From the NCBI GenBank assembly GCA_027001995.1, contig JALTLO010000056.1:1-20691 (forward strand): a stretch of 20,691 bases of DNA, given 5' to 3'. Source of the stretch: Planctomycetota bacterium. GTDB taxonomy: Bacteria > Planctomycetota > GCA-002687715 > DRQF01. The stretch's first letter is position 1, and each line of letters opens with the position of its first letter. Position numbers: made by a program. Below are positions 6,001 to 9,000 of the stretch, in pieces.

Positions 6001-9000
6001 GAGTAGCCATGAACTGGTGGAGGGAACGAAGGGCACCCTTCTTGGCAGCTTTGACCTCGATGGGGAAGATTTTCGTGCCCCTGGCAATGACGAAGTCTAC
6101 CTCTGCATTGATTTCATAAAGTTAAAGCCCTTGGGTGCTTGCGCAATTGCGGACGAGTGTGGACTTCCGCACTTGTCGGGCGCCTCGAATTACCAAGGGT
6201 TTTCGCCGAGAAGCTGTGTTCCAAGCGTGTCGTGAGCCTTCTGCGTAGCGCAACATAGGCGCATGGTGGACGAAAAAGGGGTCAATTTCAAAGGGCAAGT
6301 GGACGAAAAAGGGGTCAATTTTCCCTCAACCAAAGCTCCCCTTTCGCGGCGAGAGGCTTTGGCCGATACAGGGGCCGGTGTTTATCTTCAACGGAAGGAC
6401 AGGGGCGCTCTTGGGCGCGGGTTTAGTCCTCGCGAGCCTCTTTGCCCTTCCCTTTGACGTTGATCCGGAATCGGTCTTCATCTTGATGTTGTAACCACCA
6501 AGCCCGTGCTTTCACTAGCAACTTGGGGTCATCATTCTTCCAATTCTGACCGCCGATGAGACCAAGGGAATGAGCCGCCCGTTTGACCAGAGAAATTGGG
6601 ACAGGAACATCTTCTGGGCTAACCTCTTTCTTGCCTGTTTCCTCGAGGAATTTCCGTCGAAAATCGTGAAATTGGTTGGGACCAGCCTGAATATAGAGGG
6701 CTTCCAGGTGTTCTGCCGCAGACTGGCTGAATGGCCTCGTATCAACAAGGAATTCTCCTAAGGCCCGAACCGCCGCCACTCGCAATCTGCGCCCCAAGGG
6801 GTCCTTTTCGTTCTGACCCGGCTTCGGTGGCATTAGTTGTCGGCGGACGGAGTCCCAATCTCTGGCACCATGTCCGGTCAAGAAACGCCCAGTTAAGAGC
6901 CGACCGTCGTTCCCACAAATACGCCCGGCAAGTTCACGATGTTGCATTTCAGCATAGATGTCGTTGAGGCCCTTCTTTTGGCTTTCGTTGAGATTCTTGA
7001 GCTTCTCAAGTGACCGTGACTTCTTGTAGAGCTCGATGCCTCGCTCGAAGCTCCTTTTGGCAAACTTGAAGGGGTGATTGTGTTTCATGGCCTCGACACA
7101 CTGACACCCAGAAATTCCATATACACGACTGCCAGCCCCATTGATCATGACGAAATTGCTGAAGATCATGCTGGTCCAGGGATTATCTTTGTATTGATTC
7201 TTCCACCACGAAAGGCAGGGGACATCTTGAGGGTAGCCAACATCCGTTGTGTTGACTAAGGCCGGGATAGTCTCTTGGTTGATTTGCTCCGGGAACCCCG
7301 GAACTTCGAGCAAGCGCGAACGCATGGCGTAATGGCCTAGTCAGGCGTAGGGACTGTTGCAGTCACCAAGGAATCGACAAAGAAACACAACAAAAACAGG
7401 TTTGTCGAGCCGCCTCCCCTTGGCCATGGCGGTCTTGAGATCAGTTTCCCATTTTATGCCGTCGTTCTTGGCTGCTTGGGCAGCCGAACAGAAACCTTCC
7501 TGCTTGAGTTGGGCTTCGTTTTCTTGGGCTTTTAGATGTGCCGCAAAGAACATGAACATCGTGACGACGCCCAGGAAGAAGAACCAATTTGTTTGTTGGA
7601 ATTTTCTCATTAGGGAAGAATCTCCGAAACCAAAAGAACAGGAGGCTGTTCGCTGTCTTGTCGCGCAACGCGAACGAACGTAAGTATCGAGATGATGATA
7701 CCAAAATTTGGTTTCTTGGGGCTCAGCTTAGCGACCAAGATTCTCGAGGTATTCGCGAACGTCTTTTCTCTCTAACAACGGGTCCTCGGGTATGGCTAGG
7801 TCCATCATGATGAGGAGCATCTCGTCGCGGGCAGACGGCCCCCAGGATACGAGTTTTGGTGGACGATTGGGGTTGAGAGGGTTTTCCGCTGAATTGTCGA
7901 ATGTTCCCGTTAATCGGAGTACACTCCCGGCATGGACGGTTTTCGGTTGGGGAAAGACGTATGGCATCTGCCAATTGAAGTCCCAATCGTTGATACGTAA
8001 GAGTTCGTCTTCCTTGCCATCAGGGTGTTCGACGGAGAATCGAATCTTGCGGCCGAGGAAATGCATGTGGGGGCCCAAGGCCAGAAGCTCCACCGTCAAT
8101 GGTGCGGTTTCTGTGCATTCTGCCACGAATTCGCTGCGCCCAGCGGGGATCGACAGGTCTGCTTTGCGTAGGGCCAAGGTGACGACATGGTGCTTGACCA
8201 CTTCGTTCGCGAAACGCAATCCAATCTTCAAGCGACATTTCGCTGGTTTTCCCCTTTTGGTGAAATGAACTTGAACGACAACATCTGAATGGGCTTTGAT
8301 CGCTTTCGCGTAGCCCGTTGGGAGGGAGTGAGGCAGGGCTCCTAAGGCCCAAGCACCCAGAGTTGCGTCGGGCACAAAACCAGGGTCGCCAAATCGGCGG
8401 TATCCGGGCTTGGGGTCCGCCATGTCCATTTTTCGTGCTGAATCGCTTGTATCGACGAACGCTAACATGTGATGAAAGTTTTCTGCGGGTTCAGGACGAA
8501 ATTCGACGCTCTTGATCAGTCGATTGGTCAGCAAGTTGGATGGCAGCACAAACCAGACGTATTCATCTGGGCCATCTGCGGACAACTCGTATTCCTCTTT
8601 TAGTTGGAGGATGTGGTCCGGGGCACTCTTCCAACCTTTGGGCCAAATGACCTGCGGGGGGGTGTCTTTGGGATCTCCCTTGGGCATTCCGCCATCCACC
8701 CACTCTTTGATTTTTCGTTTCTCGGAATCCAATAGGCGCGCATCCCCGAGGAATCTGTTTCTCGGGCCGGATGCTCGCCATGGGGGCATGGCGCCGGATT
8801 GAGTTTGTTGCACAATGTCTTTGGACATTGTTCTGACCTGCCCGTATGTGATCAAGGAAAAAGGTGCAGGTTCGCCGGGCCGATGACACTTTTGACAATG
8901 ACGTTGGATCAATCCTTGGATATCGCGGTGCCAAGTGATTGATGTGGAAGTAGGTATCTCCGATACCGCTTTCGGGATTAGTCAGCCCCAGGATTCGGTG

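What a model noticed while it worked through the whole genome (the two positions that open the first line are those of the whole stretch)
6423..7610. Thioredoxin-7-like/unknown two-domain secreted protein with selenocysteine in C-N-S-P-Y-A-U-L-G-H
g01090 and g01089 are one 395-aa signal-peptide protein read through UGA at codon 90. The N-terminal ~100 aa resemble the start of Trx7/PDZ selenoproteins (K-P-V-F-V-V-F), but the redox motif is C-x5-U instead of C-x-x-U and the remaining 300 aa have no known family.
Evidence so far: One frame, 1 TGA. 5 matches in 4 of 23 genomes of the class (E<=1e-20; 37-60% identity besides the gene itself), all 5 with one in-frame TGA; U column and flanks [CS]-[ND]-S-P-[YHF]-[AV]-U-[LA]-G-[HQ]-[YH]-A-M-R kept in the 4 read, with a hairpin UUCCGGG-GKU-CCCGGA 39 nt after UGA in 3 of 4. 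NCBIfam: only a sub-threshold touch of NF041199 (residues 52-86, E 7e-4); Pfam: none.
(Added by a program. Inside this text positions count along the whole contig: contig position 1 is position 1 of the stretch shown here. "Call 12" and the like, gene names such as g00115 and contig names such as C1 are that model's own, and its searches are not shown. The text may have been shortened before it was handed on; [...] marks where a part breaks off. The agent that wrote the report below was given it as the finding of a first reader that could run no searches.)

Follow-up and report, generated by a model that had tools for sequence, protein, structure and literature searches.

The report
Exported thioredoxin-HEAT selenoprotein, uncatalogued family
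This is one real gene for a secreted redox-type protein whose key residue is the rare amino acid selenocysteine, encoded by a "stop" codon that makes gene finders cut it in two; it belongs to an uncatalogued family of uncultured Planctomycetota.

Summary
Window 7610..6423 (minus strand) is one 395-codon frame with a single TGA at codon 90. The TGA keeps its alignment column in 20 places of the 401 genomes searched. Database homologues that span the column carry Cys there. The genome has selA, selB, selD and tRNA-Sec.

The Sec is not in a new "C-x5-U" motif. Two profile alignments and a confident model (pLDDT 90.5) put U90 on the canonical first Cys of the Trx7/DsbH active site, at the N-cap of helix 1. 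A 9-residue insertion precedes it, and His replaces the second Cys (U-L-G-H). C78 and C84 occur only in the same-genus sequences.

The "unknown 300 aa" are the rest of the thioredoxin fold (to about residue 205) plus a HEAT-like helical domain.

Two hairpins could serve as the SECIS. A second one (+13..+32) recurs across the family.

Most likely this is an exported single-selenol oxidoreductase. It is related to Trx7/PDZ selenoproteins but is not a member of that family, and it is absent from the 2026 list of 119 selenoprotein families. The upstream gene also looks like a selenoprotein.

The parts
6423..7610 (-). Whole coding sequence: 395 codons plus TAA stop, read through TGA at codon 90
   Evidence: homologues align over residues 1-384 across the TGA
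7527..7610 (-). Predicted Sec-type signal peptide (residues 1-28; K/R n-region, hydrophobic core W9-A23, A-H-L-K-A then Q)
   Evidence: read from the sequence; relatives have comparable hydrophobic N-termini, and some short relatives have lipobox-like L-x-G-C. No signal-peptide predictor was run
6996..7463 (-). Thioredoxin-fold domain of the Trx7/DsbH type (residues about 50-205)
   Evidence: AF2 model pLDDT 90.5; VIA-align 3ira Z 10.8, 3f9u 10.7, 7tkv 10.2, all within residues 40-228; hhalign to Trx7/PDZ N-domain prob 96.5%
7344..7379 (-). Loop between strand 1 and helix 1 (residues 78-89), 9 residues longer than in DsbH/Trx7; holds C78 and C84 in the same-genus group only
   Evidence: gap of 9 in both profile alignments; Cys table
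7341..7343 (-). TGA = selenocysteine 90, at the N-cap of helix 91-101; active site U-L-G-H
7309..7328 (-). Hairpin A, +13..+32 after UGA (weak here: 6 of 8 pairs, loop UUCG); SECIS candidate conserved across the family
   Evidence: 75% of cells paired in 10 sequences, 4 pairs changed on both sides. The stem is 6-8 bp with GGUC or GGGC loops in L016, L018 and L028; in L017 the stem has one mismatch and a GGUC loop by my hand reading of the alignment
7286..7304 (-).
6486..6986 (-). C-terminal all-helical, HEAT-like domain (residues 209-375)
   Evidence: AF2 of the domain alone pLDDT 92.8; HEAT Pfam models hit 3 of 44 members, best E 3.4e-9; no solved fold above Z 4.1
7104..7106 (-). Cys169 codon, in the loop after the last strand; co-varies with Cys232
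   Evidence: both Cys in 22, neither in 17, only C232 in 3, only C169 in 0 of 42 rows
6915..6917 (-). Cys232 codon, start of the helical domain; likely disulfide partner of Cys169 (inferred)

Best explanation
This is a single gene for an exported two-domain selenoprotein. UGA-90 is decoded as selenocysteine by the genome's SelA/SelB/SelD/tRNA-Sec system, helped by a hairpin in the coding region just downstream. Either hairpin A at +13..+32 or hairpin B at +37..+55 could serve; which one SelB uses is not settled. After export by its signal peptide, the protein folds into a Trx7/DsbH-type thioredoxin domain. In that domain Sec90 sits at the N-terminus of helix 1, in the place of the attacking Cys of a CxxC site. 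The second Cys of the site is missing (U-L-G-H). The selenolate would therefore work alone. It would attack a disulfide, sulfenate or peroxide, and the resulting selenenylsulfide or selenenic acid would be resolved by an outside thiol. In this genus the resolving thiol may instead be loop Cys84 or Cys78. The HEAT-like C-terminal domain is probably tied to the redox domain by a Cys169-Cys232 disulfide and would hold the substrate or a partner. Shown here: the reading frame, conservation of the TGA, Sec/Cys pairing, the Sec machinery, the fold, and the position of Sec. Inferred: export, the chemistry, the role of the helical domain, and the interdomain disulfide.
For: There is one frame with one TGA. 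The TGA is at the same column in 20 places, the own gene included. A profile search of 1.84 billion representatives gave 315 hits. By my hand count of the 150 listed, 28 span the Sec column, 12 end at profile positions 90-93, and almost all the others begin after it, as gene callers would leave them. Of the 30 sequences I fetched, 22 family members have Cys at or next to the column, among them the two-domain proteins P0025 and P0033. Two have lost it, 4 are ordinary Trx7 CxxC proteins, and 2 do not span the column. In alignment A2 the column holds C/U in 34 of 35 rows and G92 in 34 of 36. The genome has selB at 334 bits, selA at 511 bits and selD at 357 bits with its own TGA, all over their cut-offs, plus tRNA-Sec beside selD. 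TGA also ends ordinary genes here (3 of 12 ORFs in the window), so the genetic code is not changed. The model has pLDDT 90.5 and pTM 0.85, with strand 72-77 and helix 91-101. U90 aligns with the first Cys of C-H-W-C in 3ira and 7tkv and with the Sec of Trx7/PDZ. The best fold matches are DsbH-type thioredoxin domains at Z 8.6-10.8. Codons P104, G105 and P107 are identical in 4 of 4 close relatives, against 19 of 119 identical-residue columns gene-wide.
Against: There is no direct evidence of selenium insertion or of expression; no RNA run was listed. Neither hairpin fits the published bSECIS model cleanly. Hairpin A in this window has only 6 of 8 pairs and a UUCG loop with no G in its first two positions. 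Hairpin B has its loop 45 nt after UGA, whereas the model gives 16-37 nt (PMC13188914, passage read). The 91-nt stretch folds no better than shuffles (z -0.72). The usual cis-Pro before strand 3 of thioredoxin-type oxidoreductases (a recalled feature) is not apparent in the family alignment (my reading). No resolving Cys is conserved, so the chemistry is open. Gene neighbourhood is not conserved in the 8 related loci examined and gives no functional hint.
Confidence: 0.75

Rival explanations
1. The protein is a selenoprotein, but it acts as a peroxidase-type enzyme (GPx- or Prx-like use of a lone Sec in a thioredoxin fold) that detoxifies peroxides outside the cytoplasm, not as a thiol-disulfide exchanger.
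For: The Sec is single, sits at a helix N-cap and has no fixed resolving Cys. The published table lists lone-Sec thioredoxin-fold families such as GPX-like (UxxT) and Prx-like (UxxS). The upstream gene in this window is a Prx/redoxin-type fusion.
Against: No sequence or fold match to GPx or Prx ranks above the DsbH/Trx7 matches. The neighbourhood is not conserved. A large HEAT-like domain is more typical of protein binding (recalled general knowledge).
Confidence: 0.2
2. It is simply a divergent member of the known Trx7/PDZ selenoprotein family (NF041199).
For: hhalign gives prob 96.5% between the N-domains, with Sec on Sec. There is a weak NF041199 hit. The same genome holds two true Trx7/PDZ paralogues.
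Against: The score is 18.7 bits against a cut-off of 300, whereas a true member (L033) scores 389. The protein has no PDZ domains and none of the internal CxxCH seen in the true members. It has a 9-residue insertion, no Cys after the Sec, and a different C-terminal domain.
Confidence: 0.05
3. The TGA is a true stop: there are two separate small genes, or a decaying gene.
For: Gene callers annotate it so. TGA is a normal stop in this genome.
Against: A stop there would cut a thioredoxin fold between strand 1 and helix 1. The TGA column is kept across genomes that are only 24-60% identical, while Cys forms fill the same column. A variant contig shows a coding-type substitution pattern on both sides of the TGA. 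The 300-aa ORF would lack a signal peptide.
Confidence: 0.03
4. The Sec serves to bind a metal or a chalcogen (a carrier or sensor) and not to catalyse a reaction.
For: Short relatives carry an adjacent C-U or C-C pair. CU motifs in the published table belong mostly to metal-related families.
Against: This protein and its two-domain relatives have A/V/Q/H/F, not Cys, before the Sec. No metal-binding family matched.
Confidence: 0.1

Closest known systems
Trx7/PDZ domain-containing (seleno)protein, NCBIfam NF041199 (row in Table 1 of PMC13188914)
   Same: Both are exported Planctomycetota proteins with an N-terminal Trx7-type thioredoxin domain. The Sec is at the homologous active-site position (hhalign prob 96.5%). 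Both have paralogues in the same genome.
   Different: Trx7/PDZ has C-x-x-U-x-x-C with Cys on both sides of the Sec, an internal CxxCH and two PDZ domains. The protein here has a 9-residue insertion, U-L-G-H, and a HEAT-like domain. Its model score is 18.7 bits against a cut-off of 300.
Thioredox_DsbH / DUF255 domains (PF03190; structures 3ira, 7tkv, 2ju5) and Thioredoxin_7 (PF13899)
   Same: These are the best fold matches (Z 8.6-10.8). They are the only PDB sequence-profile matches to the N-terminal domain (3ira E 2.3e-4), and there U90 falls on the first Cys of C-H-W-C. 7tkv also joins this domain to a helical domain.
   Different: Those proteins use Cys and keep the second Cys. No Pfam model reaches its threshold on this protein. 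The helical domain of 7tkv did not align (score -2.8).
VPGUxxT family thioredoxin-like selenoproteins (NF041382 / NF041383)
   Same: These are thioredoxin-like selenoproteins with Sec in the first position and a non-Cys residue in the fourth. Relatives of this protein touch the model weakly (up to 21.8 bits).
   Different: The cut-offs are 275 and 350 bits. The motif here is S-P-Y-A-U-L-G-H, not V-P-G-U-x-x-T. This protein gave no hit at E<=1.
Single-Cys thioredoxin-fold proteins such as AGR2/AGR3 (3ph9, 9i3u); their CxxS motif is recalled, not tested
   Same: The fold match is Z 9.9. The active site is a lone nucleophile in an exported or secretory-pathway protein. This resemblance suggests how the protein may work, by mixed bonds with client proteins.
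   Different: They are eukaryotic and use Cys. They have no HEAT-like domain, and no sequence relationship was shown.

Membership tests
Bacterial selenoprotein (criteria used in PMC12013277 and PMC13188914) | In-frame TGA conserved in orthologues | tested here: met
   20 places, the own gene included, have the TGA at the same column
Bacterial selenoprotein (criteria used in PMC12013277 and PMC13188914) | Cys-containing homologues aligned with the TGA | tested here: met
   22 of 30 fetched homologues have Cys at or next to the column, including two-domain P0025 and P0033; the column holds C/U in 34 of 35 rows
Bacterial selenoprotein (criteria used in PMC12013277 and PMC13188914) | Sec-decoding machinery in the genome | tested here: met
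   selB, selA and selD are over their cut-offs; tRNA-Sec at C148:24316-24413
Bacterial selenoprotein (criteria used in PMC12013277 and PMC13188914) | bSECIS hairpin: small apical loop 16-37 nt after UGA, with G in its first two positions | tested here: inconclusive
   Hairpin A is at the right distance but weak here, with loop UUCG. Hairpin B is strong with loop GUU, but the loop lies 45 nt after UGA. No Rfam match
Bacterial selenoprotein (criteria used in PMC12013277 and PMC13188914) | Selenium found in the protein | not testable with these tools
   needs labelling or mass spectrometry
Trx7/PDZ (seleno)protein NF041199 | Model score at or above 300 bits | tested here: not met
   18.7 bits, residues 52-86 only; true member L033 scores 389
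Trx7/PDZ (seleno)protein NF041199 | PDZ domains and an internal CxxCH after the thioredoxin domain | tested here: not met
   no Pfam domain at E<=0.01; no CxxCH in the sequence
Trx7/PDZ (seleno)protein NF041199 | Sec in a C-x-x-U-x-x-C site | tested here: not met
   Sec aligns with Sec, but the flanks are A-U-L-G-H after a 9-residue insertion
VPGUxxT thioredoxin-like selenoprotein NF041382/NF041383 | Model score over the cut-off, and the V-P-G-U-x-x-T motif | tested here: not met
   no hit at E<=1 for this protein; relatives reach 21.8 bits or less against 275
Pfam Thioredoxin_7 / Thioredox_DsbH | Gathering score reached | tested here: not met
   none for this protein; relatives score 13-21 bits against 27
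Pfam Thioredoxin_7 / Thioredox_DsbH | Same fold and same active-site position | tested here: met
   3ira Z 10.8, 7tkv Z 10.2, 2ju5 Z 8.6; U90 falls on the first Cys of C-H-W-C
HEAT repeats (PF02985, PF13646) | Pfam HEAT models match the C-terminal domain | tested here: inconclusive
   no hit for this protein; 3 of 44 family members hit, best E 3.4e-9; best fold matches are alpha-solenoids at only Z 3.0-4.1

The most novel reading that the evidence does not exclude
This protein, its two-domain relatives and the short C-U relatives form a Planctomycetota-wide clade of exported Trx7-type proteins. In the two-domain branch the selenocysteine has no partner cysteine. It would act as a selenol 'hook' that captures client proteins or oxidants through a selenenylsulfide, with the HEAT-like domain as the client platform. 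In addition, the in-frame SECIS would have moved between two positions within one family (+13 in distant members, +37 in this genus). That would put a working bacterial SECIS beyond the accepted 16-37 nt window.
Probability: 0.2. Interest if true: 0.6.

Novelty: new variant of a known kind. Interest (0 to 1): 0.5.

Why it matters
Thioredoxin-fold selenoproteins are a well-known kind, so the class is no surprise. This family, however, is missing from Pfam, from NCBIfam and from the 2026 table of 119 prokaryotic selenoprotein families. Every public copy I saw is cut in two or named "hypothetical". It adds a lone-Sec active site with a lengthened loop and a HEAT-like partner domain to the catalogue. 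It offers a natural test of how far a bacterial SECIS can lie from its UGA. Together with the neighbouring gene and the two Trx7/PDZ paralogues, it shows that this vent planctomycete invests heavily in exported selenoproteins. A curated model would repair many annotations.

Tried and rejected
- **Rfam:** nothing relevant. The only match around the UGA was a chance miRNA hit at E 1.7, and no family reached its gathering score in the window.
- **Foldseek, whole model:** no match at E<=0.001 against PDB. The weak rows were DsbH-type thioredoxin domains.
- **C-terminal domain alone:** Foldseek gave nothing at E<=0.001, and VIA-align gave nothing above Z 4.1. A known fold is therefore neither shown nor excluded.
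- **ESM Atlas:** the 300-aa table-11 ORF gave only viral 'hypothetical' clusters sharing 135-149 of 256 features, which is chance level.
- **Word-indexed protein searches:** these found only three truncated ORFs. Cluster look-up gave only 'hypothetical protein' names.
- **Gene neighbourhood:** neighbours differ in all 8 related loci, even in the same genus (AcrB, ribH, nusB and ftsY in G287), so I dropped the idea of an operon with the upstream redoxin gene. A terminator-like hairpin at 7651-7636 lies between the two genes.
- **Expression:** no RNA holder was listed among the sequencing runs.
- **Not5 match:** a PDB-profile match to Not5 (E 0.0034) over residues 204-260 was taken as helical chance.
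- **Earlier scan notes:** a look-up by place and by sequence found nothing for this gene.
- **Literature:** searches and passages of PMC12013277 and PMC13326102 showed no thioredoxin-HEAT selenoprotein. The supplements of those papers, and BSepDB itself, were not seen.
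Full report
**The observation**

On the minus strand, window 7610..6426 is one open frame of 395 codons, broken only by TGA at codon 90 (window 7343-7341). It ends at TAA 6425-6423. Under table 11 the frame falls into an 89-aa ORF and a 300-aa ORF, which is how public gene calls show it.

NCBIfam gives only NF041199 at 18.7 bits (cut-off 300, residues 52-86). Pfam gives nothing at E<=0.01.

**Is the TGA a selenocysteine codon?**

The genome holds selB (334 bits), selA (511 bits) and selD (357 bits, itself with one TGA), all over their curated cut-offs. A tRNA-Sec lies just after selA-selD on contig C148. TGA also ends ordinary ORFs in the window (3 of 12), so the genetic code is standard.

Searching 401 genomes of the phylum with the read-through protein gave 27 places in 23 genomes, and 22 of the 27 have one in-frame TGA.
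- Two of the 22 are true Trx7/PDZ genes (L033 scores 389 bits on NF041199).
- In the other 20, the own gene included, the TGA stands 19 residues after the conserved K/R-P of the first strand, or 18 in L028.
- The five places without a TGA are two Cys forms (L025, L029), a C-terminal fragment at a contig end (L037) and two unrelated thioredoxin-like proteins (L031, L032).

A profile of nine two-domain sequences (A1) was run against 1.84 billion representatives and found 315 proteins at E<=0.001. By my hand count of the 150 listed:
- 28 span the Sec column;
- 12 stop at profile positions 90-93;
- nearly all the others begin just after the column.

This is the pattern expected if gene callers stop at the TGA.

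I fetched 30 of these sequences:
- 22 are family members with Cys at or next to the column, including the full two-domain proteins P0025 (412 aa) and P0033 (392 aa);
- 2 have lost the Cys;
- 4 are ordinary Trx7 CxxC proteins;
- 2 do not span the column.

In the 64-row alignment A2 the column holds C/U in 34 of 35 rows and the Gly two places later in 34 of 36.

A contig from a run of another study covers 7279-7385 with 16 differences in 107 bases and keeps the TGA. Five of its 7 listed differences are at third codon positions, on both sides of the TGA.

Together these meet the usual computational criteria for a bacterial selenoprotein, apart from the SECIS question below. No direct evidence of selenium or of expression exists, and no RNA run was listed.

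**What the protein is**

AlphaFold2 on A2 gave a confident model (pLDDT 90.5, pTM 0.85). Its elements are:
- a signal-peptide helix;
- a thioredoxin fold with strand 72-77 and helix 91-101;
- an all-helical C-terminal half from about residue 209.

VIA-align places residues 40-228 on DsbH/DUF255/Trx7-type thioredoxin domains: 3ira Z 10.8, 3f9u 10.7, 7tkv 10.2, AGR3 9.9, DsbH 2ju5 8.6. Foldseek ranks the same proteins first, but only weakly.

Two independent profile alignments fix the position of the Sec:
- The family profile against PDB sequences aligns U90 with the first Cys of C-H-W-C in 3ira and 7tkv, with a gap of 9 before it.
- hhalign against the N-domains of four Trx7/PDZ proteins (A6) gives prob 96.5%, E 7.9e-10. 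It puts U90 on their Sec, again with a 9-residue gap.

Counting from the K-P motif, the canonical site is at +10/+13 in 3ira, in ordinary Trx7 proteins and in Trx7/PDZ. Here the Sec is at +19, and position +22 is His.

So the Sec is the canonical attacking residue at the N-cap of helix 1. The site reads U-L-G-H, and the second Cys is absent throughout the two-domain branch (Q, Y, F, A or H).

C84 and C78 lie in the inserted loop and occur only in the four same-genus sequences of the nine aligned.

Short relatives of about 230 aa carry C-U-L-G-G-R. Their Cys forms carry C-C.

**The remaining 300 residues**

Residues up to about 205 belong to the thioredoxin domain. The conserved N-x-T-D-x-G-F-P motif after strand 2 and the S-G loop after the last strand are shared with the short relatives.

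Folded alone, residues 205-389 give pLDDT 92.8 and nine helices. No solved structure matches above Z 4.1, and the top rows are alpha-solenoids.

Pfam HEAT models hit 3 of 44 family members (best E 3.4e-9) but not this protein. I therefore call the domain HEAT-like.

Cys169 (loop after the last strand) and Cys232 (start of the helical domain) co-occur. Both are present in 22 rows, neither in 17, only C232 in 3, and only C169 in 0. This pattern points to an interdomain disulfide, as expected for an exported protein. That is an inference.

**The SECIS**

There are two candidates.

- It has 8 bp, loop GUU and -12.4 kcal/mol here. L013, L014 and L035 carry it with loop GGU, and L015 keeps a 4-bp remnant. 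The five more distant two-domain sequences lack it.
- Its codons P104, G105 and P107 are identical in 4 of 4 close relatives. Gene-wide, only 19 of 119 identical-residue columns keep the same codon.
- CCG is only 22% of Pro codons in the window.
- One pair changes U-G, U-A, C-G among these sequences.
- These points suggest selection on the RNA. However, the loop lies 45 nt after UGA, outside the 16-37 nt of the published model (PMC13188914, passage read).

Hairpin A (+13..+32, window 7328-7309) recurs in all ten two-domain sequences.
- 75% of cells are paired, and 4 pairs change on both sides.
- L016, L018 and L028 have stems of 6-8 bp with G-rich loops (GGGC, GGUC, GGGUC). L017 has a stem with one mismatch and a GGUC loop, by my hand reading of the alignment.
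- In this window it is weak, with 6 of 8 pairs and loop UUCG. In the variant contig, one of the two non-synonymous changes closes its U-U mismatch.
- The conserved A-M-R-x-R peptide overlaps this hairpin.

A true Trx7/PDZ relative (L033) has a GUU-looped hairpin at +17..+39, and the paralogue in this genome has a GGU-looped one at a similar distance.

The whole 91-nt stretch folds no better than shuffles (z -0.72). Rfam has nothing. Which hairpin SelB uses cannot be settled here.

**Distribution and context**

Two-domain forms with the TGA occur in 7 other genomes of 5 GTDB families. The short form occurs in several more. All named records are 'MAG: Planctomycetota bacterium'.

The runs that hold the window's DNA are labelled hydrothermal vent metagenome.

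Neighbours differ in all 8 related loci examined, even within the genus. Context therefore gives no functional clue, and a terminator-like hairpin separates the gene from its upstream neighbour.

**How it most likely works**

*Shown:* one gene, a conserved Sec/Cys position, the Sec machinery, a Trx7/DsbH fold with Sec at the catalytic helix N-cap, loss of the second Cys, and a HEAT-like second domain.

*Inferred:* the signal peptide sends the protein out of the cytoplasm. The lone selenolate attacks a disulfide, sulfenate or peroxide. The selenenylsulfide or selenenic acid is then resolved by an external thiol, or in this genus perhaps by loop Cys84 or Cys78. The helical domain binds the substrate or a partner.

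My estimates are:
- about 0.9 that it is a real selenoprotein;
- about 0.75 that it is a redox enzyme using the lone selenol;
- within that, thiol-disulfide exchange is more likely than peroxidase action (about 0.2);
- metal or chalcogen binding about 0.1.

Two things keep the chemistry open. No resolving Cys is conserved. The usual cis-Pro also appears to be absent, by my reading of the alignments against recalled knowledge of thioredoxins.

**Comparison and novelty**

The closest known family is Trx7/PDZ (NF041199). The thioredoxin domains are homologous, with Sec on Sec. Membership nonetheless fails on score, on domain architecture and on the motif.

VPGUxxT (NF041382/3) is similar in idea, with Sec first and a non-Cys residue fourth, but it fails on score and motif.

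I read the whole of Table 1 of the 2026 review PMC13188914, which lists 119 families or subfamilies. It has no thioredoxin-HEAT or U-x-G row. Literature searches and passages of PMC12013277 and PMC13326102 showed none either. Their supplements, and BSepDB itself, were not seen.

Earlier notes of this scan (unchecked AI notes) describe exported thioredoxin-HEAT selenoproteins with UxxC sites in other Planctomycetota genomes. They also describe a DsbH-like short family. This gene looks like a lone-Sec branch of a broader, still uncatalogued group.

I rate it a new variant of a known kind. It is solid and useful for annotation, with moderate surprise.

**Seen in passing**

The upstream gene (window 9545-7728, minus strand) is also one frame of 605 codons with a single TGA at codon 188.
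- The TGA aligns with an invariant Cys (G-C) in 11 of 11 fused redoxin / CxxCH / Cu2_monoox_C-like homologues.
- It is followed by a 6-bp hairpin with loop GGA starting 15 nt after the UGA.
- It is very probably a second selenoprotein.

Noticed in passing
window 7728-9545 (minus strand); TGA at 8982-8984: The 'redoxin' ORF (8982-9545) and the 'CxxCH + Cu2_monoox_C-like' ORF (7728-8912) form one 605-codon frame joined by a single TGA at codon 188. That position is an invariant Cys (G-C) in 11 of 11 fused homologues from other genomes. A hairpin GGUAUC-GGA-GAUACC starts 15 nt after the UGA. The conserved heme-domain sequence begins before the TTG 'start'. This is probably a second selenoprotein, with Sec in a position that looks like a resolving Cys of a Prx-like T-x-C-P domain.
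   Followed up: partly
G000:C197:20360-21550 (locus L065:155-1444, minus): A Trx7/PDZ paralogue in the same genome has two in-frame TGAs in its site (U-V-P-U-R-D-C), where the other paralogue (C86) has C-V-P-U-K-N-C. An earlier scan note (e1-919766) covers this gene.
   Followed up: partly
loci L019-L027, L030, L036 (other genomes): A short exported branch of the same family (about 200-265 aa, some with lipobox-like signals) carries an adjacent Cys-Sec pair, C-U-L-G-G-R. Cys forms carry C-C at the same place (L025; P0055, P0090, P0104, P0112, P0149). The vicinal Cys-Sec pair recalls the C-terminal G-C-U-G of thioredoxin reductase (recalled).
   Followed up: partly
G000:C148:21750-24413 (locus L066): selA, selD (itself with an in-frame TGA) and tRNA-Sec lie side by side on one contig.
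   Followed up: partly
window 9653-11446 (-), 13463-15064 (+), 15150-16706 (-): Three B12-binding radical SAM genes lie within 7 kb. The first gives sub-threshold best hits to RiPP C-methyltransferase and PhpK-type P-methyltransferase models. A weak GH14/GH42-like ORF (11464-13296) lies among them.
   Followed up: no
window 6266-6288 and 6299-6321: There are two exact copies of a 23-nt direct repeat 33 nt apart, about 100 nt downstream of the gene's stop, in the gap between convergent genes. A third, 65% copy lies at 6359-6381.
   Followed up: no
window 7636-7651: A palindromic terminator-like hairpin (GAACAG-GAGG/CCTC-CTGTTC, followed by a T run on the minus strand) lies between the upstream selenoprotein candidate and this gene's start.
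   Followed up: no
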